A stretch of 64,000 bases of DNA from a candidate division WWE3 bacterium RIFOXYC1_FULL_40_10 (lineage in GTDB: Bacteria > Patescibacteriota > WWE3 > UBA101185 > UBA10185), in contig MEWB01000001.1 in NCBI GenBank assembly GCA_001773215.1, positions 69,964 through 133,963 of the forward strand, written 5' to 3'. The notes under the pieces were generated by a model. It was not told the origin of the DNA. It searched no databases and saw only the letters and a program-made list of their open reading frames with translations. Of this stretch, positions 41,901 through 56,829 are shown piece after piece (the first letter of the stretch is position 1; the number at the start of each line of letters is the position of its first letter). The position numbers were made by a program, and so were the translations under genes.

Positions 41901-44900
41901 AGTCCCTCCGGTGGGTATATTTTGTAGTTGTAAAACCACGCTTGTATTGCTAAAAGAGCCCGTCCCACCAGAAGTTGTGTTTTTTATTCTGGTAGCTATA
42001 TCAAGAGGGTTTTTTGGCATAACAGCTGATAGCTCAGGTGAGCGCAACTGTACATACGAAGTGGAGGTAGTTGTCAGTTCAGATTCCGTAATGTAAGCAT
42101 CCCCGTCGCTGCCCACTGGATCCACATGGAATGTACTGAAGGCGGTTTTGCCTGTGGTGGTTTTTTGAGTTGTGTCCAAATACACTATGGGTGCTACACC
42201 ATATTCCATTGGGTTGAAGGAATAAACATGCCCTGTTGTTGCATAACTTGTTGACACTGTTGTTACCAAAGTATTATCCAATGTGTGTACCAACTCTAGT
42301 TTAGTGATACCTCCGGCATCCGTTTGTTCGTGAATGATTTTAGCGTTGCTAACTTTTGCAGTGTTGGCAGAAGTTTTCATACATACCATATAGCTTGCGC
42401 TGTCCGAAAGGGTAATTGCGCTACTTCTTACCCTGGCCCACGTTGTTCCTACTACAGTTATCTCGCTGCTTGCCACTTCCGTTACACATGTGGCTGCATT
42501 TTCATACAGAGCAAGCGAAGTGGTTTGGCCAGCGGTATCATTTGCTATAGTAGCCTCAAAGTAGGTAGTAGGTGCAGGGGCGTATACATCAGCATCATAG
42601 GTATAGATTTTTTTATCCGTCAACTGTGTATACGCGGTTTGAGTAGAGGTTTCATTATTGCCGACTTCAATATAGGTTTGAGTAGTTGTAAGTTTAGTCG
42701 TTCCTGTTTGAACAACTATTAGTCTGGCCGACTTGATAAGTGTTGTTTGTCCGGCCACTGTGTTTTTGACTCGCACAGAATAATCGGTGCCATCGATAAG
42801 AGAAATCGCAGTGCTGCTTCGTTTTCTTACGTAAACTCCTCCGGGTTTGCTACCGGTCACGGCTGATCCGTCAACTTCTTCTCCAAGAGTGTTGTACAAT
42901 GCGGCACTGCAATCTCCCGATCCGGTTTCAGTAAAGGAGACTTCAAAAAATACTTCCACAGAATCTGCCGGAAATTTATCCGCATCCCAGTTAATTAGGC
43001 CGAGAGAGTTATCTGTTGGTACGGCCGTTCCGCTTGTGGTTGAGTACACCTGATCCATGATGTTTATTTGTTGAGTCACTTTTGCCTCTGCAGGTCTAAA
43101 TGAAGCTTCAAAGTATGTCGTTGGGGTAGGGGAGAATACGCTTGAGTCGTAGTAGTAAAGTTTTGGGTAACTTGGTGTTATGTAAGTAGCACTGCTTGTA
43201 TTTTCTGCAGATCCTACTTCAGCCAACGTTTCGGTGTCTGTAATTTTGGTTGTATCACTTTGCACTACCACCAAACTTGCTGAGCGGAGAAAGGACCACG
43301 CTCCCACAGAATCATTTCTTAGCCGTACAGTGTAAGCAGTTCCATCCACAAGTGTTAACGCAGTGCTTCTTTTTGTTACATACACACCTCCCGGCTCTCC
43401 TCCTGCGATTTCGTTCGAAATAAGTGTACCATCGGTGTCATATAAGGCAGCAAAACAATCTCCGTTTCCGTTTTCGGTCATTACTACCTCTAAATATACT
43501 GTTTCTCCTGAATATTTTGTCGAGTCCCAATGTACAACTCCTAGTGAATTATCCCCGGGTAGGAATACATGAGTGTCTCCATTATCTTCATCTGCGCCCG
43601 CCATCTTATAATCCTGATTGAGAATGTTTATTTTCTGCTCAATCTTTGGTTCGGCCACATCCACGGTAGCTTCGACGTATGCAGTTGGGATTGGGTCAAA
43701 TTTGCTTGAATCGTAGTAATATGCCTTTTGTGATGTAAGCTGCGTGAAAGTGTCATTGCTTGTAGCTTCAGGGTATCCCAATTCCATGTTGGATTGGCTT
43801 GTTGTAATTCCGTCTTCTTTTGTTTGCACAATAACCAGCCTCGCTTCCTTAATTGCCGTGCGACCGGTCGTGGAGTTGCTTATTCTCACCGTGTAATCAG
43901 TATTGTCTGCCAGTGTTAATGCGTCACTTCTGTATCTTGTGTACACACCATCAGATCCGGCGTAAGAGAGCAGTGAAGGTCCCAAAGGGTCTCCAGCTGC
44001 TGTATACAATTGTGCCTCGGCGGAACCGCTGGTATCGGTTTCCATCATAACGACTTCAAAATAGACTGCGGAATCTGGATATTTATCTGCGTCCCAGTAA
44101 ACCAAGCCCAGCGAATTATCTGTTGGTACTGCTGAGTTTCCTCTTGTTTCGAAAACCTGCGAAATAATTTCCAAATGGTGTTCCATAGTGGGGTTTCCTT
44201 CACCGCCCCCACCACCACCGCCATCAAGTGCACCGGCATCGCTAGCTGCGACTAGCTGTGCCGATTTACTACCGAATTTATAAAAAGGAGCTGTTGTATT
44301 TTCAGCAGGTGTAACTGTAGAAGTTGCTGTCCAACCTGTGTTGTAAGTGGCATGGTCAAAGGAGGGGTTGGTGATTTTGTTTGTTGTACCTTCTTCCATA
44401 AAAACCCCACCGTGTCCGGCATAACTTCCGGAACTTTCATAACCTGTCGTAGTTGAGGAGTTATCCACTCCAACTAACCCTGCTATATACTTTGCTCCTG
44501 TTATCGTACCGTGATTTCCGTTTCCGCTGTCGTCAATTGCCTTACCTGTGTTACGTGGGTCGTCTCCGTTTTCGTCAAAGTGAAGTAGGAGTTTGGTGTA
44601 TTCGTCGCGGATGAATGGGGTTGTGGTGGGGGTGAAGTTACCGGTATAACGCTTGATGTTGGAGATTCTATATTCATCAATAATGGAATTCAATTGCCTT
44701 TCGGTATATGTAGCACTTCCAATGGCTTTATTATATGCAGCATCAGAATTGTAAGTGCCCGTTGCGGGGACTGGAGAGGCTACTTGGCTAACACCATTAA
44801 TATATATTTGAGCAGTTTTGGCGGTGGCGTTCCACACTATAGCCAGGTGTTGCCATTGGTCTAGGGTTAGCCCTGTGGCGCTGGTAAAGCTGTAGGTTCC

Positions 44901-45773
44901 GCCTGTTGTAAAGATTGTGAAAGACGGTTGTCTGGCTGAGACATGCCAGTATAAATAATATCCAACAGAGGTACCCGATTTAACTCCAGAAAGATAAGAA
45001 TAATAGGCATAGGGGGTTTTAGGGTAAATCCAGGTCTCAATTGTAAAGTCAGCGTTTGGTAAATCATCTAAGGACGGATTTGAACCCAGGTCAACTTCTT
45101 TTGGGTAACCAGATATGTCTAGGGCACTTTTGGAAGTGCTGTAGCGGAGGGCGCCTGTGGCGGTGGATGGTGTTTCGCCTGCCGCACAGGTAGTAGCACC
45201 CTCAAAGGGGCAAACAAGCAATGCGTCAATAGCTCCTATGTCAAAAGCATCAGGAGTATTAGTAGGGGATGTTGCCTGTTGGTTTCCGAAATACACATAA
45301 TAGCTTGTTGCTGTTCCTGCTGAGGATAATGAGGCTTGAAGTGGGAAATATACTTTTGTAGCTGTACTTGTGCCGCAAGTTTCACCGCTTGGATAAACTA
45401 TATGACGATTGAGGACAGTGTTAGTAGTATCGTTTGGTTGATACGCTATACGTAGGTCTGAACAATCGGGCTTAATTTTTGCCTGTGCTGCAAGGGTTTT
45501 TGTATCTACCGTGATCGCGATTGTTGTATTTGCCGAAAGGGAAACTGCGGAAGTGTTCACAATATTTAGCTGCTGTCTCTGAGCCCAGTCAGCCAGAGTA
45601 GGGGACCATATAGCTTGTGTGTTACCTGGGTTTCTGAACAAGATATAGATAATGGGGGTTAGAATTACCAAGGTGCCAACAAAAAAGGGAAGTAACGTTT
45701 TCTTTAATCTTTTTACGATAGGCAAGTACTTTTCAATCACAGCAATAACCTTACCAAATCTTTTTGCTCCCAT
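35922..45773 (-). CDS. Giant N-terminally membrane-anchored surface protein (3283 aa) built from repeated LamG/ConA-like (Laminin_G_3-type) jelly-roll domains plus N-terminal CBM-like repeats
   Basis: Uninterrupted 9.85-kb ORF. Signal-anchor VGTLVILTPIIYILF. At least 8 occurrences of the Laminin_G_3 signature (for example DDVRIYNRALSGAEIDQLY, LDEVKIYNFALSAEQV, MSDLRIYNAALTSTQVADLY, IDQVRIYDYARTPAQV). N-terminal ~170-aa repeats (VYFEVVMMETDTSGSAEAQLY / VYLEVVMTENGNGDCFAALY / VFFEVSFTETGSGDCSAALY). A Gly7 tract. Confidence 0.85.
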   Translation of the reverse strand: MGAKRFGKVIAVIEKYLPIVKRLKKTLLPFFVGTLVILTPIIYILFRNPGNTQAIWSPTLADWAQRQQLNIVNTSAVSLSANTTIAITVDTKTLAAQAKIKPDCSDLRIAYQPNDTTNTVLNRHIVYPSGETCGTSTATKVYFPLQASLSSAGTATSYYVYFGNQQATSPTNTPDAFDIGAIDALLVCPFEGATTCAAGETPSTATGALRYSTSKSALDISGYPKEVDLGSNPSLDDLPNADFTIETWIYPKTPYAYYSYLSGVKSGTSVGYYLYWHVSARQPSFTIFTTGGTYSFTSATGLTLDQWQHLAIVWNATAKTAQIYINGVSQVASPVPATGTYNSDAAYNKAIGSATYTERQLNSIIDEYRISNIKRYTGNFTPTTTPFIRDEYTKLLLHFDENGDDPRNTGKAIDDSGNGNHGTITGAKYIAGLVGVDNSSTTTGYESSGSYAGHGGVFMEEGTTNKITNPSFDHATYNTGWTATSTVTPAENTTAPFYKFGSKSAQLVAASDAGALDGGGGGGGEGNPTMEHHLEIISQVFETRGNSAVPTDNSLGLVYWDADKYPDSAVYFEVVMMETDTSGSAEAQLYTAAGDPLGPSLLSYAGSDGVYTRYRSDALTLADNTDYTVRISNSTTGRTAIKEARLVIVQTKEDGITTSQSNMELGYPEATSNDTFTQLTSQKAYYYDSSKFDPIPTAYVEATVDVAEPKIEQKINILNQDYKMAGADEDNGDTHVFLPGDNSLGVVHWDSTKYSGETVYLEVVMTENGNGDCFAALYDTDGTLISNEIAGGEPGGVYVTKRSTALTLVDGTAYTVRLRNDSVGAWSFLRSASLVVVQSDTTKITDTETLAEVGSAENTSSATYITPSYPKLYYYDSSVFSPTPTTYFEASFRPAEAKVTQQINIMDQVYSTTSGTAVPTDNSLGLINWDADKFPADSVEVFFEVSFTETGSGDCSAALYNTLGEEVDGSAVTGSKPGGVYVRKRSSTAISLIDGTDYSVRVKNTVAGQTTLIKSARLIVVQTGTTKLTTTQTYIEVGNNETSTQTAYTQLTDKKIYTYDADVYAPAPTTYFEATIANDTAGQTTSLALYENAATCVTEVASSEITVVGTTWARVRSSAITLSDSASYMVCMKTSANTAKVSNAKIIHEQTDAGGITKLELVHTLDNTLVTTVSTSYATTGHVYSFNPMEYGVAPIVYLDTTQKTTTGKTAFSTFHVDPVGSDGDAYITESELTTTSTSYVQLRSPELSAVMPKNPLDIATRIKNTTSGGTGSFSNTSVVLQLQNIPTGGTAGGVELYNYTDTASVADSEVTSATKGWQTVRSSAITLTTAKTYTMRLKNAVVASAKVVLVQSAVGGITDLEIPITLVNNYKTSVDPSYGDGIEYPFYFDNEAYGTRPTVKHEVVVKTSDAGESTYTDFYKQAISTITAAVITGSEQSTNAIIWTRQTTGDLYLDLPFNTRSYITRFRPTSGGTASISQSTILIQIANLPNAGATGSIGLYDKTTGASVAASETTTTTTGLRRLRSAGFTLTTGKEYVFEMKQARIVSAKLILEQNSTILETQLMHYASHIPTSEVDNNYDRKYGLLSFDPANWAGTSAVARYFQAYAKVSASDGNIDLYNVSTAATVTSSNINITPTSYTRTTSGDIAAGMPAVANELDIRMDATSGNYVYAQYSGLLTDITFALAQPTAEYSTAVSPGGITTHTLSAYVFNGTTGEIGSPITESNARLVWEGGTVDATSDGAIYTDVGGGWYRITYSHATSDASNDYGVAVAADKTMYVDGMQLEEKTYATSYADGTLGTGYAWTDTGHESTSTRTADTLQYAVENNISTTTFSLGFWTKAVSGTATQVRQFIDPTSGQTGPSIRFQPAVGGFAFFDNSGATIATYTSATMTLDKWYFVTAVRDGSAGTSTIYVNGSAGTPQTTAFGFDTTNFGVGYNPSGNGGPSDATMSDLRIYNAALTSTQVADLYSAGLVSRSETAGSITIDRFSDNKGQDITSVWHFDEGYGTTANDSSINLNHLTTSGATWTRNANNSYLSYDGTNDFAYRNFDRDFDFGSNEFTLSGLFKHPSTISGTDTVLSRQSGTTGYKIYMDSSGYMCFSVNSDSACITTSYADSKWHSFSAVRSSASLTLYIDGTPAVELARAAPATVNGNNPIYIGIDSDGTANPWTGYIDEVSIYPYARSAAQVLTDNLGQQVAVSIGTRENDNLTDGLVGWWKMNEASWTVDCSTYSVLDASGNANNGKACPNSTGPSGGVVGKFGNSGDLVTDDYVQFTSEIYFAHGAPWSTSYWIYPNDVKNNIPLGVNLQGSYIYTYVNGASSKIGARNRDSQSPTDVTVTMNNTTWYLVTAVADGTGLVKMYLNGEYKGSSNPGSNGSGIRFDRFGRAYPNNDAFSINARLDDVRIYNRALSGAEIDQLYSWAPAPVAHWNFDEGTGISANDSSGNGNTGTLTGATHLPTWTKGKFGKGIKFDGNDDYVTAGDISSVESQGALTAEAWVKVDGAGTQYEGIISKNMKIDLLRAGGLGGNDDIFVRINDGSNPYAYTTGNILTNNIWHHVAMVFDGAQTGNANRLKLYFNGALQTLTFSGTVPTSTGSDSTPLLIGKYTEGSAYLSGATDDVRIYNYARSEKQVIADMNAGHAAPGSPTPSALVHYKFDEGYLTSSNNSGNGGSSLNGTLSNATWSNSGKYGKALSFDGDGDYVQVNTAADLSAELTFSTWFKTSSLSTQTLISNENIPVRAGPILQIHSSGMVMLFDGVACSSASGIGYNDGDWHHAVATINPSGTYSIYVDGNLADYDTCNIYANPTDRILVGAHYSNNVPGTNPFSGILDEVKIYNFALSAEQVKTEYNHGTAQSFGALSTDGDGATPDNSADRGYCVPGDTSSCSDPIAEWNFDDGAGSTAYDKSGNSYDGILVNSPSWSPGKFGKALEFDSALNTSVNIYSANFANAFDTSEGTAELWFKANSSIWTDGVNHRLLYIAADTDNRVTLHKSTLDNQLQFYYIAGGTNSGVSTSSSSYTDWTHAVITWSKSSDAVRAYINGKQEGSTVSSLGTWTGSIDETLANIGSQLSTGSSEWDGGIDQVRIYDYARTPAQVAWDYNQGGPRGWWRMDETTGTVSYDASGNGINGTLTNGVTLLTNGKLNYGYTFNGSDGYVDIGAGPNVVNSISFWINPTSATEYPIDLNGSAYVWINGGTITAQGFSSPTIFVNGIPSTTLSAGIWQHVVISTATSLSATDFDIGRIEGMGNLEGDMDDVKIWTYTLTATQAKIEYNNGAINFEE

Positions 45774-45801: not shown

Positions 45802-48800
45802 TTATTCTCTGTTAACTATTAACCAATCGAATTTTATGTCGGTTCCAAACTCGTTTTCCACCTCAATCGTAAAGGATTCTCCTGCTGTTTTTTCTGAAAC
45901 TATTAGTGATTGGCCGCCTGTTGGTGTTGTAGGGGTGACCATAATTACTGAATTGGCGGATACTTGTTTGGAATTTACTGTTACACTTGTTGAATTAGCC
46001 TGCAGTTCAGAGGATCCCACTGCATCGGATGCATCATCAACAATAATCTCTCCCGCTTTGATAATTGTAGCTTCAACCTGTCCTTCAACTTTAATATTGC
46101 CGTCTGGGGATATGACAATTTTTCCATTGAATATGTCAACGTTCCCCGCCAAGCCTTTTTGTAAATATAGGGTTTGGGTGTCGCACAAGGCTGTGTCGAT
46201 TTTCTCTGTTGCTTGGTTGTAACAAGAAGGTCCAATGATATCAAAAGAGTCTTCCATCGGATCCAGTGACATTAAACCTGCAGACAGCGTGCCGGTCACT
46301 GTTACATCCGAAAAGGTTGCGTTTCCTGTCACGCTCATATCGCTGTTAACTAATAATCCACCATCTGAGGTACTTAGCCCAAGAGCATTACTGAATTCAG
46401 TAAACTCATCATATATTTTCTTCATTTCAGACAAAATGTCGGCAGGTAAAGACTGTGTAGATTGGGTGGTTTGACTTGCTTGTGTTGTGGCATCAAGTTT
46501 AGCTAGTATGTCATCAATAATATTCTGTTGATCTTGAATTGCCTTAACGAGTACCGGTGTTAAACTGCCGTAAGCAATACCCATGGAGCCGTCTTCTCCT
46601 GAAACAACCTCCGGGATTATTTCTTTAACATCTTGTGCAATTAACCCAATGCTGGAGTCCCCGGTTTTTTTGAAATCAAATCTTACCGGGTTCAAGGCCA
46701 AAACTTCTGCCAATCCATAATCCAGTGTTTCCACATTTTCCTTAAAAGCAAGATCAGAGGCATCATTCCAGCAGGTTGTTCCGTCGCAGTATGCTTCGGC
46801 TCCGGAAAGATAAAGTCGATAGGCTCCGGGATCCGTGGTTCCGATTCCTAGATTTCCTAGTTCATCTAGCGTCATTTTTGCTGTTATGTACCCTTCGCTA
46901 CCGTCTCCGCCACCATTCGTGGTTCCAAAAATTAAGTTCCCTGTATAACCCCCTGTAGATGGACTCCAAATTGCTGCAGCGTTATTCACATAATTTTTAA
47001 AGATGATACCTGCCCTGGAATTTGTCGTGGTGCTGTCGTTCGCTATTAACAGACCTGCTGTTACTGATGTTGAGCTATTTGTGTCATACACCGTCAATTT
47101 CTTGGTAAAGGTTGATGTTCCAATACCAGTATTGCCACTTGTGTCAATGGTTAAGAATGCATTTGTCCCCGCAGTCGTGCCATCACCAACCATAAACAGA
47201 TCATCATCATCTCCACCGGCATCCTCCTGCACACCCATCCAAAAGTTTGTGTCCGTAGCGGTTTTTGTATCAAATAAAATGGTGGGGTCCGAGGCAAGCA
47301 GTTGCATATCTCCGGTACCGGATAAATTGAACACCGCATTGCCTGTACCATAAGTTTTGAGAGTAAAGTCATTATTCTCGAAACTTTCGCCCGATATTAT
47401 TGATAGCGGGCCGTATGACTCGATTTGTGATGCTGTCTGATTTGTCATGTTGAGATCATATGCAATAGCCACATCTCCGGCGGCGCTAAATGTTGTTGGG
47501 ACAAAAAATTCAGCTCTTGCCGCTCCTAATGTTGCTATATTAGTTCCCGTGTCAGCAAAAGTAAGATTGCCTGCTGAATCTATTGTAAACGAAGAGTAGT
47601 TTCCTGCATTGTAGCTAAGTCTTAGTTGTTCGGTTGTTCCTAAAATTTCCAGTTTAGATGCGGGAGCAGTTGTTCCTATACCTAATCTATCAGTAGAATC
47701 GGCCCAGAAGAAATTCGTAGCATCCTGTGTCATATATGTTCCGTTACCGAACATAATTCCACCGTTTGTCACAGTTGCTCCATCGAGCATATTTAACTCC
47801 GCCGCTGAGGAAGTGACCTGTGTTCCGCCAAGATATAATGTTGCCAAATAGGCATTTCCATCAACTTCTAAATTACCATACACATATAAATCTTCGTTAA
47901 CAGTACCGTTATCAAACGTGTATCCTGTGTCGGGGGCAATATATGTGTCTCCCCCAACAATATGCATCTGTGAGTCGGGGTCAGTAGTTCCAATTCCTAC
48001 ATTATCTGCTGCATCCGCGACGATAGCGTCATCGGCATATCTAAATAACCCATTGGTATCATCTCGATACCATATCATTTCATCGCCATTTCCTCCGAAA
48101 CCACCAATGCCAACTGACGAAATACTGCCGTTTGAAAAATACACTCCGTTGCTTGCTGTGGTATGTAGGGTAAGGGGTATTTCCGTCGTGTCTCTTCCAA
48201 AAATGGTCTCTCCAGCTACTTCAAAAGCACCTCGGGGTACCGTTGTACCTATACCTACAGATCCGGCATTGTCGATGTACAAGGTCCCCGCGTCAAAGTT
48301 AAAATCAGCGGTGTTAGTGTCCATATTAATTGTAGTAGTGGCATCGAGTGTCATGGTATCGGTAAATTCTGACCAATCAAGGGAGTCTGGGGTAATTCCG
48401 GTAGCACCAATTGTTGCCCAAGTGAGAGTTCCCGTACCTCCGTTAGTTAGTACGCCGTTTGTAGTATGCCCAGTAGGCCAAGAGTAAGTTAAATTTTTGA
48501 GTTTAATAATGTCCCCATTGGCATCTATTTGAAAAGGTGATGTAGCTCCTATGGAGAATAGGGAAGTGGGGTTAGTTGTTCCAACACCGACATTGCCACC
48601 AAAATAATTGGTTCCGCCTACGGAGTAGATTGCATAATCCAAGCTAGTCCCTGAAGTTTGATCTTCAATGTATAATCCGTAGTTGTTTGCAATAGTGGCA
48701 CCTGAGTAAAGGTAGGGGTTGGCTATATAGATTTGATAAAGATTTGTAGTTACTGCGTTAGTAAAGTAACCTTGATAATCGGAGTAGATACCATATGCGT

Positions 48801-51201
48801 TTGGGATCGATGTAGAATATGTAGCCGCGGCATTTGAGATCAGATTTTTCATTCCGTACATATCTGATACCGTTGTTACACCCGAGCCAGAAGGGAGAGC
48901 ATTTGAAACCGATGTCAGGTTATAAATTCCGGTGGCTTCAGTATGTGTTGTTCCTGGTCCGTATATCCTATTTATGTTTTGTAGAGCGACCGTGCTGTTA
49001 GTATTAACCCCTCCGGAATCTGCACTTCCTGCTTCCAAGAGATTAAATACAGCATAGGAGATACCGCTGTGATTATTATTAGTACCTTTCTTGAGTATCA
49101 GTTCGTTATCTATTCCTGTCGTGGTTCCGTATAATTGGGCATTCGCCCTAACTTTGGTAAGAATCTTTTCACCCGTTGCATCTCCTCCTCCGTTTGTGTC
49201 TGTAAAGTCGTAGTCTTCCGAGTGCGCAAAGATATCGGATCCTGTAGCAGTATAGTCTGTATTTATAAGCAAACTAGATCCCGAGTCTGGACCGTAAATC
49301 ATTACGTTTCCGTTGGAAGTTGTTGTGCCATTGGATTCAATAGTGAAGTACCCATCTCCTACCGTAAGAAGCGCGTTAGGTGCAGTTGTACCTACTCCTA
49401 CGTACCCCGTATCCAAGATAGTCATTAGCCCACTATTACCATACCTTACAGCGCCTATATCCGGATCATATACGGCCAGGGTGACATTAGCAGAAGAATC
49501 ATACAAACCAAACTCCCCGTCAGTGAAGATGCCACCGTTACCCAGATACCCGCCACTTCCAGTTAGTGGACCGATTGAGATAGGTATCTCGTTTCCACCC
49601 AGGTATGAATCCCCATTTACCTCGAAGGTAAATAGCCCTGGTGCCGATACACCTATTCCTACTGCTCCTCCGCTTGGATTGAGGACGACGTCCCCACGAC
49701 TCCCAAAGCCTCTAGGGGCTCCGCCACTTATAAATACATCTCCGCCGCTGGAGCCAAACGCCATAAATGCGCCCGCATAGCTTCCCGTTATATATAAATC
49801 GGTCCCACTTCCGAATCCGGGCGTATCCGTCATTTTGATGGTTCTGTTTGCTGATCCATCCAGATATGTATCTCCTGCTATTGTCAATGTCGCTGTTGGT
49901 GCAGTTGTACCTATACCCACATATCCGGCATTATCAATATATAGTGTTCCTGCATCAAAATTAAAATCCGCGGAGTTGGTATCCATGTCAATGGTAGTAG
50001 TTGCATCTAATGTCATTATATCTTTGAACTCCGACCAGTCCAAAGAGTCAGCGGTAATTCCTCCGGCACCTATGGTTCCCCAAGAAAGAGTTCCCGTTCC
50101 ATTGTTAGTTAAAATTCCGCTCGATACATGGGAAGTCGGCCATGAGTATGTTAAGTTCTTTAATTTAATTATATCTCCGTTTGTATCAATCTGAAATTGC
50201 GAACTTGCTCCAACTGATAGGGGAGAAGTTGGGGTATTCGTTCCAATTCCGAATCTGTAGTTGGTATTGTCCCAGTATAAATTTGTGACATTCTGTGCAA
50301 ATTTGCTACCGTTCCCGAACAGTATTCCTCCGGCGGTTGCTGTTGATCCGTTCAAATAACTCAATTCCTGGGCAGTTGTACTTATTGTGGTTCCGCCTAT
50401 ACTCCAGTCTTCTGGGAGATCTACACTGCCCTCAAGTATTAAGTCACCACCGTAGGTTATCTCATCTGCTAAGTGCTCCTCAGTAATTATTCCGGATTTA
50501 ATTTTCACATCATTTAGTCCGGTCCCGACAAGGTCTCCGTTAATATCTAGTGCAGTTTCCAGAGTGGTTTCCGTTACTGTGTCGATTCCCCCGAGCCTGT
50601 TCATTTGTCCTATTGTGACTGTTCCAGTCCCAAAGTTTCCGGAGGCCCCTTGCGTGTCTAACCCTCCTTTTAAAGTTGCTATGCCTTCGGCACTTAGTGT
50701 TTTTGCGAAGTTCGAGTCCACTGTCACCGCGAAGAGGTAGTCTTTTATCGAGTCACTTGCTTGAAGAACATTAGCGAGGGAATTTGAGCGATTTTTTACC
50801 GGGTTTTTTTCCTTACCGGCCGCTGCTCCAAAGATCAAAAGAAATACTATGAAGATAGTAAATGCTAAACTCGTTAGTCTGAAAGCTCTGGATAAGTTGC
50901 TTAAAGGTTTAATCAGAATGTTTTTCTCAACTATTTGTACCCTTGGTGACGAAGAATACGTTGTCACTTTAGTTTGTTGTTTGCTTGCAGCCAGTTTTTC
51001 TTGAAGCTGTAGGATGTCCCCTAGGCCAAAGACCCTATATCCGTTATCCAATCTTTTTGAGTTTATCAGTTTGAGAGATTCATGCCTTCTTAGTGAAGAC
51101 GTTGACATACCAAGCAAAGATGCTGCTTCAGACACACTTAGTTGCGTTCTGTTTTTTATATTCGATATGTCATTAGAGTTCTGTTGGGCAGGAACTTCCA
51201 T
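45802..51201 (-). CDS. Giant membrane-tethered fibre-like protein (1799 aa): N-terminal HTH_17-like domain, single TM, tail-fibre-like repeats, intramolecular chaperone (peptidase S74-like) domain, ~230-aa C-terminal domain
   Basis: N-terminal LSVSEAASLLGMSTSSLRRHESLKLINSKRLDNGYRVF (HTH). TM LTSLAFTIFIVFLLIFGAAAG. Repeated GIGTT(A/N/D)P motifs. Segment SDLAFKENVETLDYGLAEVLALNPVRFDFKK...IGLIAQDVKEIIPEVV matches the tail-fibre/endosialidase auto-chaperone domain. Confidence 0.85.
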   Translation of the reverse strand: MEVPAQQNSNDISNIKNRTQLSVSEAASLLGMSTSSLRRHESLKLINSKRLDNGYRVFGLGDILQLQEKLAASKQQTKVTTYSSSPRVQIVEKNILIKPLSNLSRAFRLTSLAFTIFIVFLLIFGAAAGKEKNPVKNRSNSLANVLQASDSIKDYLFAVTVDSNFAKTLSAEGIATLKGGLDTQGASGNFGTGTVTIGQMNRLGGIDTVTETTLETALDINGDLVGTGLNDVKIKSGIITEEHLADEITYGGDLILEGSVDLPEDWSIGGTTISTTAQELSYLNGSTATAGGILFGNGSKFAQNVTNLYWDNTNYRFGIGTNTPTSPLSVGASSQFQIDTNGDIIKLKNLTYSWPTSHVSSGILTNNGTGTLSWGTIGAGGITADSLDWSEFKDIMTLDATTTIDMDTNSADFNFDAGTLYIDNAGYVGIGTTAPTATLTIAGDTYLDGSANRTIKMTDTPGFGSGTDLYITGSYAGAFMAFGSSGGDVFISGGAPRGFGSRGDVVLNPSGGAVGIGVSAPGLFTFEVNGDSYLGGNEIPISIGPLTGSGGYLGNGGIFTDGEFGLYDSSANVTLAVYDPDIGAVRYGNSGLMTILDTGYVGVGTTAPNALLTVGDGYFTIESNGTTTSNGNVMIYGPDSGSSLLINTDYTATGSDIFAHSEDYDFTDTNGGGDATGEKILTKVRANAQLYGTTTGIDNELILKKGTNNNHSGISYAVFNLLEAGSADSGGVNTNSTVALQNINRIYGPGTTHTEATGIYNLTSVSNALPSGSGVTTVSDMYGMKNLISNAAATYSTSIPNAYGIYSDYQGYFTNAVTTNLYQIYIANPYLYSGATIANNYGLYIEDQTSGTSLDYAIYSVGGTNYFGGNVGVGTTNPTSLFSIGATSPFQIDANGDIIKLKNLTYSWPTGHTTNGVLTNGGTGTLTWATIGATGITPDSLDWSEFTDTMTLDATTTINMDTNTADFNFDAGTLYIDNAGSVGIGTTVPRGAFEVAGETIFGRDTTEIPLTLHTTASNGVYFSNGSISSVGIGGFGGNGDEMIWYRDDTNGLFRYADDAIVADAADNVGIGTTDPDSQMHIVGGDTYIAPDTGYTFDNGTVNEDLYVYGNLEVDGNAYLATLYLGGTQVTSSAAELNMLDGATVTNGGIMFGNGTYMTQDATNFFWADSTDRLGIGTTAPASKLEILGTTEQLRLSYNAGNYSSFTIDSAGNLTFADTGTNIATLGAARAEFFVPTTFSAAGDVAIAYDLNMTNQTASQIESYGPLSIISGESFENNDFTLKTYGTGNAVFNLSGTGDMQLLASDPTILFDTKTATDTNFWMGVQEDAGGDDDDLFMVGDGTTAGTNAFLTIDTSGNTGIGTSTFTKKLTVYDTNSSTSVTAGLLIANDSTTTNSRAGIIFKNYVNNAAAIWSPSTGGYTGNLIFGTTNGGGDGSEGYITAKMTLDELGNLGIGTTDPGAYRLYLSGAEAYCDGTTCWNDASDLAFKENVETLDYGLAEVLALNPVRFDFKKTGDSSIGLIAQDVKEIIPEVVSGEDGSMGIAYGSLTPVLVKAIQDQQNIIDDILAKLDATTQASQTTQSTQSLPADILSEMKKIYDEFTEFSNALGLSTSDGGLLVNSDMSVTGNATFSDVTVTGTLSAGLMSLDPMEDSFDIIGPSCYNQATEKIDTALCDTQTLYLQKGLAGNVDIFNGKIVISPDGNIKVEGQVEATIIKAGEIIVDDASDAVGSSELQANSTSVTVNSKQVSANSVIMVTPTTPTGGQSLIVSEKTAGESFTIEVENEFGTDIKFDWLIVNRE
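47900..48560 (-). repeat. Internal repeat copy A within the 1799-aa gene (partner at 49830-50240), ~75-80% nt identity by eye
   Basis: Encoded protein segments are near-identical (...IKLKNLTYSWPTSHVSSGILTNNGTGTLSWGTIGAGGITADSLDWSEF... vs ...IKLKNLTYSWPTGHTTNGVLTNGGTGTLTWATIGATGITPDSLDWSEF...). Antisense six-frame ORFs 47918-48487 and 49835-50194 mirror each other. Confidence 0.6.
49830..50240 (-). repeat. Internal repeat copy B within the 1799-aa gene
   Basis: See copy A. Confidence 0.6.
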
Positions 51202-51221
51202 ATTTATCCTTGTAATTTCCT

Positions 51222-51281
51222 ACTATATCAATGTTTAGTAAGGATTACACTGTTAATTTTAGAAACCAACTATATCAATGT
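51222..51281. promoter_or_regulatory. Two 13-nt direct repeats ACTATATCAATGT (51222-51234 and 51269-51281) in the divergent control region
   Basis: Exact 13-mer repeated 47 nt apart. One copy overlaps the -35/spacer of the minus-strand promoter; the other lies in the predicted 5' UTR of the giant-gene transcript. Confidence 0.5.
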
Positions 51282-51284
51282 CAA
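51256..51284 (-). promoter_or_regulatory. Near-consensus sigma70 promoter (TTGACA-17-TAAAAT) driving the giant-gene pair
   Basis: On the minus strand, ttgaca is the reverse complement of 51279-51284, the spacer is 17 nt, and taaaat is the reverse complement of 51256-51261. The predicted TSS is about 47 nt upstream of the start codon at 51201. Confidence 0.55.
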
Positions 51285-51305: not shown

Positions 51306-52115
<810 letters not shown>

Positions 52116-52133: not shown

Positions 52134-52739
52134 ATGAACCTGCCCTTAATAGTGTTACTCATAATACTTGGATCAGCCTTGGTTTTAGCGTTATTTTTTT
52201 TGGTAGTTGATCTATTTCTATTCAAAAAAGAATCTCCTACCGAGCTCAACTCTTCGCTAAAGGTTATTGAAAATGCAAAAATAAAGTCTTTGCAAATAAT
52301 TACGAGTGCTTATGAGGATGCCAGAAAAAATATGAGGGTTTCTGACACCATCGGTAAAGAGGCTAAGACAGAGATGGAAGATATCCTTGAGAGGTCTTTT
52401 GAAAAGATGATCGTGACACTTGATACAGTAGGGGGGAATGTCATAAACAACTATCAAGCCACACTCAATAAGTCCCTTGATGTAGCGGCCATACAACTTG
52501 AGAAAAAAATGGAGGAAGCTACACACACTATTTCATCACATGTTACCGATAGTTATGAAAGGGGGGAGGAGGCAGTTGCGGACTTTGTAAAAAAGCGCAC
52601 AAGAGAAGCTGCGGCTCGGATTAGCTCAGAGTTACCACGCGTCATTGAGGAGTACCTATCTGAGAATCTAACGCTTGAAGTTAAGGAGGAAATAATTATG
52701 CGCATGGTAGAGGAGCGTCTCAAAAAGGTTGGTCTATGA
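52134..52739 (+). CDS. atpF: F-type ATPase subunit b-like (single N-terminal TM plus long charged helix)
   Basis: 201 aa. TM LIVLLIILGSALVLALFFLVV then an extended E/K-rich helix. Operon position; ATGA overlap with the next gene. Confidence 0.55.
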   Translation: MNLPLIVLLIILGSALVLALFFLVVDLFLFKKESPTELNSSLKVIENAKIKSLQIITSAYEDARKNMRVSDTIGKEAKTEMEDILERSFEKMIVTLDTVGGNVINNYQATLNKSLDVAAIQLEKKMEEATHTISSHVTDSYERGEEAVADFVKKRTREAAARISSELPRVIEEYLSENLTLEVKEEIIMRMVEERLKKVGL

Positions 52740-53122
52740 AATCCGAGTATAGTGAGATACTAGTAAATTTTAAGACTACTTCAAGATTGTGGGAACATAT
52801 AAAGATGCTTGAGGCCCATTACACTGGAACTTCCCTACAACACAAACCCGATGCTAAATTTATCGACGGGCTGAGACAATATATGAGTAGAGTACCTGTA
52901 ATTCACTTCGCCTGTAGTTTTGAGGTTAGTGAGCGGTTTATCAATCGTTTATACGACTTGATAACAGGGAGATTAGCCAGTGACCTTGTTATTGATGTTC
53001 AACCACTGTTGTGCAAAGGGCTGAAATTTGGTCTGGTATATGACGGGAAAATAGTGGAAGGATCCTTTGGGGATATTTTGGCTGATAAATTGGAACTTAG
53101 TATAGGGGGTATAGGGGAATGA
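52736..53122 (+). CDS. atpH: F-type ATPase delta (OSCP)-like subunit, short (128 aa)
   Basis: C-terminal block DVQPLLCKGLKFGLVYDGKIVEGSFGDILADKLE resembles the conserved delta C-terminus (VDPSLIGG...IDGSV). The N-terminal domain is shortened. Confidence 0.5.
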   Translation: MKSEYSEILVNFKTTSRLWEHIKMLEAHYTGTSLQHKPDAKFIDGLRQYMSRVPVIHFACSFEVSERFINRLYDLITGRLASDLVIDVQPLLCKGLKFGLVYDGKIVEGSFGDILADKLELSIGGIGE

Positions 53123-54571
53123 ATAAGGGAATATTCGAGAAGTACAAGGCGAAGTACTCAGAAGTTGGTTACGTCACTCAGCTTCAAATGCCTGTGGTCT
53201 ACGTTGAAGGGCTTCCTGGAGCAGCAATAGGGGAGTTAGTAGTATTTGATTCAGGGCAACTTGGGTACGTTAGTAGCCTTCAAAGAAGGCTTTGTGGAGT
53301 ACTTTTACTTAGTGACTTACCTGTGGGTGTTGGGTCGGTTGTAAGTAGAACCGGATCAGGAATAAAGATAAATGTTGAACGGGAGTTGTTAGGTACGGTG
53401 GTGTGCAGTTTGTTGAATGTGCTTTGCATCGACTCGGAAGATAGAAATGCCAGATATATCGAGAGTGAAATTCCACTGTTGTCAGTTCGCCGACGGGTAT
53501 CGAAGCCCTTTTTTACAGGTGTGACAAAGATTGATATGCTGGTGCCTCTTGGGGAAGGACAAAGGGAGTTAATATTGGGTGATAGAAACACAGGTAAAAC
53601 TGCTTTTGCCTTACAGGTATTAGCAACCCGCGCTTCCTTAGGCGATATTTGCATTTACGCCGGTATCGGAAAAAAGAAGAGCGATTTAATTAAGGTAAAG
53701 AGTTATCTTGAAAAGTCGGGAGCTTATAATAACTCGGTTATTCTTTTCTTTGATGCGTCCTCGCCCTCGACGGAAATTTACCTGGCACCTTACGTGGCTA
53801 TGACCATTGCAGAGCATTTTAGAGATTTAGGACATAAAGTGACATTGATTTTGGATGATCTTACTACGCACGCTAAGTATTACAGAGAAATATCATTAGT
53901 ATCTGGTGATTACCCCGGACGGGATTCCTATCCGGGGAACATTTTTCATATTCATGCTCGACTTCTCGAAAGAGCGGGGGCTTTTATTAGTCCTGACGGA
54001 AAGGAGACCTCAATTACCTGCTTGCCGATCGCTGAAACAGTAAACAGCGATTTTTCAGGATTTATTCAAACCAATCTCATGTCTATGACAGACGGTCATA
54101 TTTTCTTTGACAGCGCATTCTTTGGAAATGGGTATAGGCCACCAATAAATAATTTTCTTAGTGTAACTAGAGTCGGTAGGCAAACTCAAACATCCTTAAG
54201 GTGGGGGGTAAATAGAGAGTGTGCTTCATTTTTGCTCCTTAACCAAAAGACTGAAAAATTCGTACACTTTGGTACAGAGCTAAACTCTGGAATAGGGGCT
54301 ACGTTAAAAATGAACGAGCTTATACAACAATTATTCACGCAGGAAGAGGACTTTCTAGTCCCAATGAGTGTACAACTAATTACGTTCGCACTAGTATGGA
54401 TAGGTGCATTAAAGTCATCGGTACATACATATATATGTCTATCAAAGGACAAGTATATACGAGAGGACACATACCGTACTTTAACGGATACTCTGGTCAC
54501 TTCCTCGGAATCCCTTAATGATTTCTTGGGTAAAGTTTCGGCCAAAAAGGTTGAATTATTATTAGAAGGAG

Positions 54572-54591
<20 letters not shown>
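53119..54591 (+). CDS. atpA: F-type ATPase alpha subunit
   Basis: Walker A GQRELILGDRNTGKT (alpha-type). The conserved block YLAPYVAMTIAEHFRDLGHKVTLILDDLTTHAKYYREISLVSGDYPGRDSYPGNIFHIHARLLERAG aligns with the alpha catalytic-site region. Confidence 0.85.

Positions 54592-56829
<2,238 letters not shown>

What the first reader, a model, noticed from the sequence alone, without database searches (positions are those of the whole stretch)
45802..51201. Membrane-tethered fibre protein with an N-terminal DNA-binding-type HTH: a possible one-component envelope-to-DNA coupling device
Residues ~20-70 form an excisionase/MerR-like HTH (SEAASLLGMSTSSLRR...NGYRVF). They are followed by a single TM helix (res ~108-128) and ~1650 extracytoplasmic residues of fibre-like repeats. 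This topology (cytoplasmic HTH, one TM, large outside domain) is that of ToxR/CadC-type membrane-bound transcription factors. Here the outside domain is a tail-fibre-like adhesin, and the gene's own promoter carries 13-nt direct repeats. This suggests autoregulation coupled to the surface state of the fibre.
Basis: inference. Interest (0 to 1): 0.75.

Follow-up and report, generated by a model that had tools for sequence, protein, structure and literature searches.

The report
Surface fibre with cytoplasmic DNA-binding tail
A candidate-phyla-radiation (Patescibacteria) bacterium encodes a giant phage-tail-fibre-like surface protein whose short cytoplasmic tail is a BldC/MerR-type DNA-binding domain. 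This design, its place opposite the ATP synthase operon and a palindromic leader element recur across the phylum, which suggests an undescribed link between a surface fibre and DNA.

Summary
ORF 45802-51201 (-) encodes 1799 aa: a MerR-type winged helix (res 20-70), one TM helix (about 106-129), and an acidic Thr/Gly-rich ectodomain with a Peptidase_S74 tail-fibre chaperone domain (1482-1533). An exact 13-nt direct repeat sits in its 140-nt promoter region.

The HTH strengthens under profile search. It passes Pfam thresholds when scanned alone, and its best solved relatives are BldC and RacA.

The architecture is not a one-off:
- 88% of testable relatives have HTH(s) followed by a single TM, with total lengths of 233-7185 aa.
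- Homologous giants carry integrase SAM-like or excisionase-type DNA-binding modules in the same position.
- In 19 of 21 assessable Patescibacteria loci the gene is divergent from a 257-aa membrane-protein gene. ATP synthase genes follow that gene in at least 16 loci plus the window.
- Most relatives share a sequence-conserved palindrome starting about +1 of the leader. The window's promoter-proximal 13-mer lies inside that element.

The ToxR/CadC comparison is an analogy of topology only. DNA binding and autoregulation remain inferred. I found no description of this architecture in the literature I could search. Verdict: real, interesting, a new variant of membrane-tethered DNA-binding proteins, with function untested.

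The parts
45802..51201 (-). Whole gene: 1799-aa HTH - TM - fibre - S74 - C-terminal domain protein
   Evidence: ORF list and translation. Homologues with the same architecture.
50992..51144 (-). Residues 20-70: minimal MerR/BldC-type winged helix-turn-helix, predicted cytoplasmic
   Evidence: Pfam MerR and MerR_1 above the gathering scores when scanned alone. Profile hit to BldC 6amk/6ama at E 7e-9. AF2 block-mean pLDDT of about 95 or more. Foldseek matches to RacA and BldC. R39, R50 and R56 are invariant in the family.
51184..51192 (-). CCTGCCCAA, encoding P-A-Q at residues 4-6; the nucleotide motif CTGCCC is conserved near the start of almost all family members
   Evidence: The Ala codon is GCC in nearly every locus that has the motif. 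In L007 and L019 the nucleotides are kept in another reading frame.
50887..50991 (-). Residues 71-105: helix 60-82 continues into a basic, disordered linker (net +5)
   Evidence: AF2. Charge computation.
50815..50886 (-). Residues 106-129: the single transmembrane helix (signal anchor, N-in)
   Evidence: Only hydropathy peak in the protein. AF2 helix 101-131. Family positive-inside bias.
46759..50814 (-). Residues 130-1481: acidic Thr/Gly/Ser/Asn-rich fibre region with eight GIGT..P module starts and a 136-aa internal duplication (res 313-445 = 49867-50265; res 864-999 = 48205-48612)
   Evidence: PHROG tail-fibre families at residues 1284-1582.
46603..46758 (-). Residues 1482-1533: Peptidase_S74 intramolecular chaperone / autocleavage domain. 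S1482 and K1487 have the Ser-x4-Lys spacing of the catalytic dyad.
   Evidence: Pfam E 1.6e-11. The SDxxxKxN(I/V) motif is shared with homologues. Dyad spacing as in MYRF S578/K583 (PMC3742443).
45805..46602 (-). Residues 1534-1799: coiled-coil-like stretch plus conserved C-terminal beta domain ending in FDWLIVN. It has a sub-threshold K1-lyase_C match at 1736-1783. It would be released or retained as a separate trimer after S74 cleavage.
   Evidence: 25.2 bits vs cut-off 27. Conserved C-terminal motif in homologues.
51256..51284 (-). Best sigma-70-type promoter: TTGACA (51284-51279), 17-nt spacer, TAAAAT (51261-51256)
   Evidence: 11 of 12 matches. The same layout is seen in homologous loci.
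51269..51281 (-). 13-nt direct repeat copy 1, ACATTGATATAGT, overlapping the -35 hexamer and spacer; 61 nt from the divergent gene's start
51222..51234 (-). 13-nt direct repeat copy 2, between the -10 and the start codon (21 nt before the ATG)
51219..51243 (-). Window version of the family-conserved leader palindrome: CCTTACTA-aacattgata-TAGTAGG. It contains repeat copy 2.
   Evidence: Profile of 13 leaders (the window itself is one of the 13, so this hit is partly by construction) hits here at E 1e-8. A half-site matrix built without the window scores 14.6 bits at 51229-51243 (+). Alignment and pair counts. As RNA it is weak in the window: -5 kcal/mol, z -0.66.
51342..52115 (+). Divergent 257-aa membrane protein (p257), first gene of the ATP synthase operon; conserved partner of the HTH-TM gene
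   Evidence: tblastn finds it next to the HTH gene in 20 loci. Its ectodomain is homologous to a domain of giant protein P0019.
52134..56829 (+). Rest of the F-type ATP synthase operon (201-aa and 128-aa proteins, alpha, gamma, beta)
   Evidence: Pfam. The same order follows p257 in at least 16 other loci.
35922..45773 (-). Downstream gene, 28 nt after the stop: 3283-aa protein with 7 Laminin_G_3 domains and a plain N-terminal TM anchor (no HTH); probably the same operon
   Evidence: The same gene pair is found in loci L027 and L028.

Best explanation
**What the protein is (shown or strongly predicted).**
- It is a type-II (N-in) membrane-anchored surface fibre of a Patescibacteria bacterium.
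- The ectodomain is phage-tail-fibre-like. Its S74 intramolecular chaperone domain implies a homotrimer that cleaves itself at S1482.
- The ~100-residue cytoplasmic tail is a minimal BldC/RacA-type MerR winged helix plus a basic linker. It lacks the MerR coiled coil and effector domain.

**How it most likely works (inferred).**
- The tail binds DNA in the short region shared by its own operon (fibre plus LamG giant) and the divergent p257/ATP-synthase operon.
- Candidate sites there are the two ACATTGATA-type half-sites, which correspond to the family-conserved leader palindrome.
- The protein would therefore act as a membrane-tethered regulator of its own operon, and possibly of the divergent one.
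- Single BldC-type domains bind weakly and cooperatively. The number of tails brought together would then set occupancy: three per trimer, and more when fibres cluster or when the HTH is tandemly duplicated, as in most relatives.
- That would couple promoter occupancy to the assembly or clustering state of the fibre.
- A regulated intramembrane cleavage that releases the tail is a possible variant. Nothing here supports it.
For: - **HTH identity.** Pfam above threshold. Profile hit to BldC at E 7e-9, then CueR, RacA and GlnR. Confident AF2 winged helix superposing on BldC at 1.4 A and on RacA. The base-contacting Arg of BldC and RacA (BldC R30; PMC5859096) aligns with R39, which is invariant in the family.
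- **Topology.** One TM. Positive-inside bias in 69 relatives. Tail pI 10.2 vs ectodomain pI 4.05, with family medians 10.0 vs 4.4.
- **Selection for DNA binding as such.** Homologous giants carry Phage_int_SAM or tandem HTH_17 modules before the TM instead of MerR. The HTH is duplicated in 84 of 148 relatives.
- **Cis-element.** The 13-mer repeat is exact, unique in the window and placed on the promoter and leader. Copy 2 lies in a sequence-conserved palindrome that starts 6-12 nt after the -10 in most relatives.
- **Sequence rather than shape is conserved.** The palindrome shows no covariation above shuffles, and G.U and A.C mismatches are equal (16 vs 13). This fits recognition of a sequence better than a purely structural hairpin.
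- **Copy 1 is probably not transcribed.** It lies at the predicted -35, so an RNA role cannot explain it.
- **Classical regulator layout.** The HTH gene is divergent from p257 in 19 of 21 assessable loci, across WWE3, Saccharibacteria, Nomurabacteria and unclassified Patescibacteria. ATP synthase genes follow p257 in at least 16 of them. Weaker second palindromes lie 40-145 nt upstream of p257 where the intergenic region is long.
- **Position in the cluster.** The HTH-bearing gene is the first gene of the giant-gene cluster, and neighbouring giants lack an HTH.
Against: - No DNA-binding data exist; everything about the target is inference.
- The 13-nt direct repeat is not conserved in relatives.
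- The palindrome folds significantly as RNA in 8 of 13 leaders (z <= -2.1) and sits at the 5' end of the predicted transcript. It could therefore be an mRNA stabiliser or a translational element unrelated to the HTH.
- Interchangeable DNA-binding modules and copy numbers of 1 to about 7-8 look more like general or architectural DNA binding than a co-evolving regulator-operator pair.
- A threefold-symmetric trimer on a twofold palindrome or a 47-bp-spaced direct repeat is geometrically awkward.
- The promoter spacer is 17 nt, so the classical MerR distortion mechanism does not apply.
- One assembly of the same population has the gene frameshifted.
Confidence: 0.4

Rival explanations
1. Architectural tether rather than regulator. 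The basic tail binds chromosomal DNA with little specificity, like RacA anchoring the chromosome to the pole. It either staples the nucleoid (or the fibre's own locus during coupled transcription-translation-insertion) to the envelope, or gives a load-bearing fibre a cytoplasmic stopper. Transcriptional effects would be incidental.
For: - RacA is among the best sequence and structure matches.
- Tails are strongly basic across the family: median pI 10.0, linkers about +8 net charge per 100 aa.
- HTH copy number varies from 1 to about 7-8, and the module type is interchangeable with integrase SAM-like and excisionase-type domains, which are typically architectural binders.
- Ectodomains vary from about 100 to about 7000 aa.
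- No conserved direct repeat was found in relatives.
Against: - It does not explain the phylum-wide conservation of position opposite the atp operon.
- It does not explain the sequence-conserved leader palindrome.
- It does not explain why only the first gene of each giant-gene cluster carries the HTH.
Confidence: 0.25
2. The winged helix is not used for DNA. It serves as a protein-interaction or topogenic module, as the HTH of RodZ binds MreB. It might dock a chaperone, a secretion factor or the neighbouring p257/ATPase. The conserved leader palindrome would be an independent 5'-terminal mRNA hairpin that stabilises or controls translation of very long transcripts.
For: - There is a precedent for a cytoplasmic HTH-TM protein whose HTH binds protein: RodZ (established knowledge, not tested here).
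- The palindrome begins at about +1 and folds with z <= -2.1 in 8 of 13 leaders.
- A conserved nucleotide motif, CTGCCC, just after the start codon hints at RNA-level signals.
- p257 shares a domain with the giant proteins, which suggests a physical system.
Against: - The DNA-contact arginines are invariant.
- Unrelated DNA-binding folds replace the MerR domain in homologues. That is hard to explain through one protein partner.
- The palindrome shows neither excess covariation nor a G.U bias.
- In the window the hairpin is weak (z -0.66), yet an exact second copy sits at the -35, which is probably not transcribed.
Confidence: 0.15
3. The fusion is not what functions. One possibility is that signal peptidase cuts after the TM (…FGAAA|GKEK…), so that HTH-TM and fibre part company. 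The other is that the gene is really split or decaying, as in the JGI contig.
For: - An A-A-A stretch follows the hydrophobic core.
- The JGI contig of the same population carries 22-nt and 4-nt deletions that break the ORF into 173, 163 and 1445 aa.
Against: - The AxA-like motif is not conserved in relatives.
- A ~100-residue folded n-region is atypical for a cleaved signal peptide.
- All distant homologues keep one continuous ORF.
- In the JGI contig the reading frames continue up to and straight after each deletion, as expected for errors or recent lesions in a single gene.
Confidence: 0.08
4. MYRF-like mechanism: the S74 domain trimerises and self-cleaves to release the DNA-binding domain from the membrane.
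For: The protein has the same three ingredients as MYRF: a DNA-binding domain, a TM, and an S74/ICA domain with a Ser-Lys dyad.
Against: - The domain order is wrong. Here S74 lies outside the cell, about 1350 residues beyond the TM.
- Cleavage at S1482 would therefore remove only the C-terminal 318 residues and could not free the HTH.
Confidence: 0.02

Closest known systems
BldC (Streptomyces; PDB 6AMA/6AMK)
   Same: Both are minimal MerR-type winged helices without the coiled-coil or effector domain. BldC is the best sequence-profile match among solved structures (E 7e-9) and superposes at 1.4 A rmsd. The base-contacting Arg is conserved. BldC binds direct repeats as head-to-tail multimers (PMC5859096), which fits tandem HTHs and the direct repeat seen here.
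   Different: BldC is a free 68-aa cytoplasmic protein. Here the domain is the N-terminal tail of a 1799-aa membrane protein. BldC repeats are contiguous 9-bp units (AATTxxxxC). Here the repeats are 13 nt long and 47 bp apart, and relatives have a palindrome.
RacA (Bacillus subtilis chromosome-anchoring protein; PDB 5I41/5I44)
   Same: RacA also has a MerR-like winged helix and is the top Foldseek hit. It links DNA to the cell envelope.
   Different: RacA is soluble and reaches the membrane through DivIVA by means of a coiled coil. It binds GC-rich inverted repeats as a dimer. It has no TM and no ectodomain.
ToxR / TcpP / CadC membrane-bound one-component regulators
   Same: They share the predicted topology: a cytoplasmic N-terminal DNA-binding domain, one TM and an extracytoplasmic C-terminal domain. 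They regulate while anchored in the membrane.
   Different: Their DNA-binding domain is an OmpR/PhoB winged helix (Trans_reg_C), which is absent here. Their outside domains are small sensor domains, not a 1650-aa trimeric fibre. There is no homology.
MYRF (eukaryotic membrane-bound transcription factor with a phage S74/ICA domain)
   Same: It is a type-II membrane protein that combines a DNA-binding domain, a TM and a trimerising, self-cleaving S74 domain with the same Ser-x4-Lys dyad. Trimerisation controls DNA binding.
   Different: MYRF is ordered DBD-S74-TM, so cleavage frees the DBD. Here the order is DBD-TM-fibre-S74, so cleavage happens outside the cell. The MYRF DBD is Ndt80-like, not MerR-like.
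Phage tail fibres / endosialidase tailspikes with a C-terminal intramolecular chaperone (Peptidase_S74)
   Same: Shared features are the S74 domain with its catalytic motif, PHROG tail-fibre matches over residues 1284-1582, and a repetitive fibre upstream of the chaperone.
   Different: This gene is chromosomal and housekeeping-linked, lying between the ATP synthase operon and dprA/comM. No phage genes are nearby. The N-terminus is anchored in the cell membrane instead of a baseplate. About 270 residues follow the S74 domain.
RodZ
   Same: RodZ also has a cytoplasmic N-terminal HTH, a basic juxtamembrane linker, a single TM and an extracytoplasmic C-terminal region.
   Different: The RodZ HTH is Xre-type and binds MreB rather than DNA. 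Its outside domain is small.

Membership tests
MerR superfamily HTH (Pfam PF00376 / PF13411) | N-terminal winged HTH matching the family profile above the curated threshold | tested here: met
   Residues 1-100 alone score MerR 30.4 bits (cut-off 28.2) and MerR_1 25.5 (cut-off 21.6). In the full-length scan the scores are just below the cut-offs. All 46 scanned relatives match MerR.
Canonical MerR-type regulators | Long C-terminal coiled-coil dimerisation helix plus an effector-binding region | tested here: not met
   After the wing there is only helix 60-82, then a disordered linker and the TM. No effector domain was found in Pfam or NCBIfam.
Canonical MerR-type regulators | Operator dyad inside a promoter with an over-long 19-20 bp spacer | tested here: not met
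   The best promoter has a 17-nt spacer. The conserved palindrome lies downstream of the -10.
BldC family | Minimal MerR-like wHTH lacking coiled-coil and effector domains, with the base-contacting Arg on the recognition helix | tested here: met
   Best PDB profile hit, E 7e-9. Foldseek TM-score (target) 0.7-0.8, rmsd 1.4 A. BldC R30 aligns with the invariant R39.
BldC family | Small free-standing cytoplasmic protein (about 68 aa) | tested here: not met
   The domain is fused to a TM helix and a 1670-aa ectodomain.
BldC family | Cooperative head-to-tail binding to DNA direct repeats | not testable with these tools
   Direct repeats exist in the window, but binding needs EMSA, footprinting or a structure.
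ToxR/CadC-type membrane-bound regulators | OmpR/PhoB-type winged helix (Trans_reg_C) as the cytoplasmic DNA-binding domain | tested here: not met
   No Trans_reg_C hit at E <= 0.1. The domain is MerR-type.
ToxR/CadC-type membrane-bound regulators | N-in, single-TM topology with an extracytoplasmic C-terminal domain | tested here: met
   By prediction only: one hydropathy peak, family positive-inside bias and the pI split.
MYRF-type membrane-bound transcription factors | [quoted passage not shown] | tested here: not met
   The order here is HTH (20-70), TM (106-129), S74 (1482-1533). MYRF order is taken from PMC3742443.
Peptidase_S74 intramolecular-chaperone proteins (tail fibres, endosialidases) | S74 profile match with the Ser-x4-Lys catalytic dyad at its N-terminal edge | tested here: met
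   E 1.6e-11, 44.8 bits vs cut-off 22. S1482-D-L-A-F-K1487 lies within the SDxxxKxN(I/V) motif shared with homologues. The dyad is defined in PMC3742443.
Peptidase_S74 intramolecular-chaperone proteins (tail fibres, endosialidases) | Trimerisation and autocleavage actually occur | not testable with these tools
   Needs expression of the ectodomain with S1482A and K1487A controls.
Phage or prophage structural gene | Location within a phage structural module | tested here: not met
   The neighbours are the ATP synthase operon, NusG/L11/L1, DprA and ComM. The same chromosomal position is kept in 19 other genomes.

The most novel reading that the evidence does not exclude
Patescibacteria possess a phylum-wide, previously undescribed signalling device. 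A giant host-contact fibre would be the sensor domain of a membrane-tethered BldC-type DNA-binding tail. This tail would act on a conserved palindrome shared with the divergent p257/ATP-synthase operon. Attachment or fibre assembly at the cell surface would then directly set expression of the cell's energy-converting machinery and of its own adhesin operon. It would be a bacterial counterpart of Notch/MYRF-style surface-to-DNA coupling, built from phage tail-fibre parts.
Probability: 0.15. Interest if true: 0.9.

Novelty: new variant of a known kind. Interest (0 to 1): 0.74.

Why it matters
Patescibacteria are a large part of bacterial diversity. They live attached to host cells, have tiny genomes with few recognisable regulators, and make giant surface proteins of unknown function.

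A conserved protein that joins a host-facing fibre to a DNA-binding domain would give a concrete, testable route from surface events to gene expression or chromosome organisation in these organisms. Its fixed position opposite the ATP synthase operon, and the shared leader element, add to that case.

Cultivable, genetically tractable Saccharibacteria carry family members, so the idea can be tested now.

It would also extend the BldC family to membrane-anchored forms. And it offers a prokaryotic parallel to MYRF, the eukaryotic membrane-bound factor that also uses a phage S74 domain.

Tried and rejected
- **Word-indexed search, N-terminal 150 aa.** It found only the identical JGI fragment. The exhaustive HMMER search was needed.
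- **The search for related loci with two HTH alignments.** Both runs failed because no stretch was conserved enough. A hand-made degenerate DNA pattern worked.
- **Conserved direct repeats upstream of 19 homologues.** None were consistent. The idea that the 13-mer is a family feature is rejected.
- **Rfam scan of the promoter and leader.** Nothing was found.
- **RNAalifold on 13 leaders.** It predicted no consensus structure. My hand-drawn hairpin pairs in register, but without covariation above shuffles and without a G.U bias. A structured-RNA claim is therefore not supported, and it is not excluded either.
- **Extra matches to the leader motif elsewhere in the loci.** Most look like chance or lie in coding sequence.
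- **Half-site matrix.** It gave a 17-bit hit at the start of the downstream LamG gene (expected 0.09 per window). The hit does not recur in L027 or L028, so I kept it only as a note.
- **PDB sequence search with the C-terminal 400 aa.** It gave no useful hit.
- **Prophage origin.** Rejected from the genomic context.
- **MYRF-like release.** Rejected from the domain order.
- **Literature.** Eight look-ups for this architecture in Patescibacteria found nothing: plus papers checked.
Full report
**1. What is in the window**

The minus-strand ORF 45802..51201 (ATG start, AAGGA 6 nt upstream) encodes 1799 aa.

- **HTH.** Scanned as a whole, the protein matches Peptidase_S74 at 1482-1533 (E 1.6e-11). 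It also gives just-sub-threshold MerR and MerR_1 matches at 22-67. Scanned alone, residues 1-100 exceed both curated thresholds: MerR 30.4 vs 28.2, and MerR_1 25.5 vs 21.6.
- **TM segment.** A Kyte-Doolittle scan finds a single hydrophobic segment, at residues about 103-131.
- **Ectodomain.** The rest is Thr/Gly/Ser/Asn-rich and very acidic (pI 4.05). The first 105 residues are basic (pI 10.2).
- **Fibre features.** PHROG tail-fibre families match residues 1284-1582. There are eight (V/L)G(I/V)G(T/V)..P module starts. Residues 313-445 and 864-999 are a 73%-identical internal duplication.
- **S74 motif.** S1482-D-L-A-F-K1487 has the Ser-x4-Lys spacing of the S74 catalytic dyad (dyad as described for endosialidases and MYRF in PMC3742443). 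The ectodomain is therefore expected to trimerise and to cut off its last 318 residues.

**2. Promoter and repeats**

The 140-nt region up to the divergent gene at 51342 contains an 11/12 sigma-70-type promoter: TTGACA 51284-51279, a 17-nt spacer, and TAAAAT 51261-51256.

The 13-mer ACATTGATATAGT occurs exactly twice, at 51281-51269 and 51234-51222. It does not occur elsewhere in the window beyond chance. None of 200 shuffles of the upstream 200 nt gave a repeat that long. Copy 1 overlaps the -35 and spacer. Copy 2 lies between the -10 and the start codon.

**3. A caveat about the ORF**

A JGI contig of the same population is identical over 20.5 kb except for three deletions of 23, 22 and 4 nt. 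Two of them lie in this gene, which is there called as 173, 163 and 1445 aa. The frames run up to and resume after each deletion, and all distant homologues have one continuous ORF. I therefore treat the window version as the functional gene. The deletions are either assembly errors or recent lesions.

**4. The HTH under stricter tests**

- A profile of 24 family HTHs finds BldC (6AMK/6AMA) as the best solved relative (E 7e-9). CueR, RacA, SoxR and GlnR follow.
- AlphaFold2 on residues 1-140 gives a winged helix over residues 20-59, with block-mean pLDDT of about 95 or more across residues 21-70. It continues as a helix to residue 82, a disordered linker at 83-100, and a TM helix at 101-131.
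- Foldseek returns the RacA DNA-binding domain, BldC (rmsd 1.4 A, TM-score on the target 0.7-0.8) and GlnR/TnrA.
- BldC is a MerR-like domain without coiled coil or effector domain. It binds direct repeats head-to-tail (PMC5859096). Its base-contacting R30 aligns with R39, which is invariant in the family, as are R50 and R56.

**5. The architecture is a family trait**

- A full-length search finds many Patescibacteria giants that combine MerR or HTH_17 with Peptidase_S74. Examples are P0003, P0005, P0007, P0008, P0018 and P0020.
- An exhaustive HMMER search with residues 1-140 finds 142 cluster representatives.
- Of the 78 with at least 120 residues after the last HTH, 69 (88%) have one TM-like segment 16-203 residues downstream. 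The K+R count is 3.1 on the N-side flank and 1.8 on the C-side flank. Total lengths range from 233 to 7185 aa.
- The HTH is present twice in 84 of 148 proteins, and up to about 7-8 times in one protein. All 46 scanned members hit MerR.
- Homologous giants P0014, P0019 and P0056 carry Phage_int_SAM domains before the TM instead, above threshold. P0049 carries two HTH_17 domains.

Two or three unrelated DNA-binding folds occupy the same cytoplasmic position. This is the best argument that DNA binding itself is what selection keeps.

**6. Organism and distribution**

AtpD is only 51-61% identical to its nearest relatives. The named ones among them are Patescibacteria group and WWE3.

A degenerate DNA pattern for the HTH found 24 loci among species-representative genomes. 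Twenty are Patescibacteria (WWE3, Saccharibacteria, unclassified). Their ORFs start M-P-x-x-[PS]-A-Q, then HTH, basic linker, TM and a long ORF. The four non-Patescibacteria hits lack a TM segment; three are ordinary soluble tandem MerR proteins and one is a 698-aa Phycisphaera protein with a single HTH.

**7. Conserved surroundings**

The window gene is divergent from a 257-aa membrane protein (p257). That gene heads the ATP synthase operon: p257, 201 aa, 128 aa, alpha, gamma, beta.

- tblastn finds p257 next to the HTH gene in 20 other loci. It is divergent in 18 of them. With the window that makes 19 of 21 assessable loci. It is co-directional in L027 and absent in L028.
- atpA, atpG and atpD follow p257 in at least 16 loci plus the window.
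- The loci were chosen by the HTH alone, so this linkage is not a selection artefact.
- Downstream, the 3283-aa Laminin_G_3 giant follows after 28 nt. It has a plain TM anchor and no HTH. The same pair occurs in L027 and L028.
- Only one gene per locus carries the HTH.

**8. A conserved leader element**

Lining up the upstream regions shows the same layout in most relatives:

- TTGACA, 17-18 nt, TAnnAT;
- then 6-12 nt;
- then an imperfect palindrome, CCTTACnAAATGTTG - about 6 nt - CAACATTTGATAAGG;
- then the SD and ATG.

Tests of this element gave the following results.

- In register, 73.8% of cells pair, against 36-49% when the partner is slid.
- Covariation does not exceed column shuffles. 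G.U mismatches (16) equal A.C mismatches (13). The sequence is therefore conserved, not just the pairing.
- As RNA, 8 of 13 leaders fold with z <= -2.1. The window's does not (-5 kcal/mol, z -0.66).
- A profile of the 13 leaders hits the leaders strongly. It also gives weaker palindromes 40-145 nt upstream of p257 in L012, L014 and L016, where intergenic regions are long.
- Rfam has nothing.

In the window the element is CCTTACTA-aacattgata-TAGTAGG (51243-51219). The 13-mer corresponds to the family's 3' arm (AACATTTGATAA, with one T fewer). The window thus has two direct copies of that half-site, one in the leader and one on the -35, instead of an inverted pair. The copy at the predicted -35 is probably not transcribed, so at least that one cannot act as RNA.

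**9. Interpretation**

*Shown or strongly predicted:* an N-in, single-TM, probably trimeric tail-fibre-like surface protein with a BldC/RacA-type DNA-binding fold as its cytoplasmic tail. It is conserved as a family, as a chromosomal position and with a cis-element.

*Inferred:* the tail binds DNA in the shared control region and regulates its own operon, and perhaps the divergent atp operon. Occupancy would depend on how many tails are brought together by trimerisation or clustering. I put this at about 0.4.

*Rivals:*
- A non-specific nucleoid or locus tether, or a mechanical stopper (0.25).
- A non-DNA role for the HTH, with the palindrome acting as an RNA leader (0.15).
- A cleaved or split, non-functional fusion (0.08).
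- MYRF-like release (0.02), which the domain order contradicts.

**10. Comparison with known systems**

- It works like ToxR/CadC in topology only and is not a member, because there is no Trans_reg_C domain.
- Its HTH belongs with the BldC-type minimal MerR domains, but it is membrane-fused.
- It shares all three ingredients of MYRF, in a different order.
- Its ectodomain belongs with the S74 tail-fibre proteins, but it is chromosomal and housekeeping-linked.
- Database names are automatic, for example 'MerR family DNA-binding transcriptional regulator, partial' and 'tail fiber domain-containing protein'.
- I found no paper describing the architecture, the synteny or the leader element. The library does not hold most subscription-journal papers, so this absence is not proof.

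**11. Verdict**

This is a real feature. I rate it a new variant of membrane-tethered DNA-binding proteins, with interest about 0.74. The conserved synteny and leader element make the hypothesis directly testable in cultivable Saccharibacteria.

Noticed in passing
window 50662-50683, 50124-50127 and about 59185-59207 vs locus L001: JGI contig Ga0208953_1000674 differs from the window only by three deletions (22, 4 and 23 nt) and has no substitutions over 20.5 kb. Two of the deletions frameshift the fibre gene. They could be assembly artefacts, real population variants or pseudogenisation.
   Followed up: partly
window 51184-51192 (-); first 5-35 nt of the ORF in loci L002-L026: The nucleotide motif (C/T)CTGCCC(A/G) is conserved just after the start codon in almost all family members. 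It usually encodes P-A-Q, with Ala as GCC in nearly all of them despite AT-rich genomes. In L007 and L019 the nucleotides are kept in a different frame, which suggests selection at the RNA or DNA level. CCTGCCC is otherwise rare: 26 occurrences in 276 kb, about half of them these sites.
   Followed up: partly
window 51342-52115 (+): The 257-aa first gene of the ATP synthase operon has no Pfam hit. Its C-terminal two-helix hairpin (…EALGRNPLA…) resembles an F-type c subunit but lacks the acidic ion-binding residue. Its ectodomain is homologous to a domain repeated in giant surface protein P0019 (E 1e-11). No recognisable a or c subunit gene lies in the operon.
   Followed up: partly
window 45749-45763 (-), codons 4-8 of the 3283-aa gene: The best match in the whole window to the leader half-site matrix (AAAGATTTGGTAAGG, 17 bits; 0.09 such hits expected per window) lies at the very start of the downstream Laminin_G_3 giant gene. 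It does not recur at the equivalent genes in L027 or L028.
   Followed up: partly
window 35922-45773 (-): A 3283-aa protein with seven Laminin_G_3 domains plus weak TafC-fimbrial and GTA spike-fibre matches sits 28 nt downstream of the fibre gene. The pairing of HTH-S74 fibre with a LamG giant is conserved in two distant loci (L027, L028).
   Followed up: partly
window 30238-31146 (+): A 302-aa soluble protein has an N-terminal excisionase/HTH_17-like domain (weak hit to the family HTH profile, E 3e-5), a long acidic linker and a C-terminal domain. It has no TM. It is a second minimal wHTH protein in the window.
   Followed up: no
window 33523-35908 (+): The competence genes dprA and comM (Mg-chelatase-like) converge on the 3' end of the giant-gene operon. 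This may be coincidental, but it is notable in organisms thought to depend on DNA uptake.
   Followed up: no
proteins P0014, P0019, P0056 (homologous giants from other metagenomes): One or two Phage_int_SAM (integrase core-binding) domains stand before the single TM helix of giant surface proteins, in place of the MerR HTH. I know of no description of such integrase-N-domain / TM / giant ectodomain fusions.
   Followed up: partly
protein P0057 (623 aa) and other hits: P0057 has 8 matched HTH stretches by phmmer against the full N-terminal query, and 7 with the HTH-only query. They lie in tandem before a TM at about residue 501. Most family members have exactly two copies, whereas the window protein has one.
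   Followed up: no
window 49867-50265 and 48205-48612 (-): There is a 136-aa internal duplication in the fibre (res 313-445 vs 864-999, 73% identical). It is a possible substrate for recombination or length variation. The 4-nt deletion of the JGI contig falls in the first copy.
   Followed up: no
loci L012 4568-4618, L014 4245-4289, L016 1239-1288: Where the intergenic region is long (700-800 nt), a second, weaker copy of the leader palindrome lies 40-145 nt upstream of the divergent p257 gene. This hints that both transcription units carry the element.
   Followed up: partly
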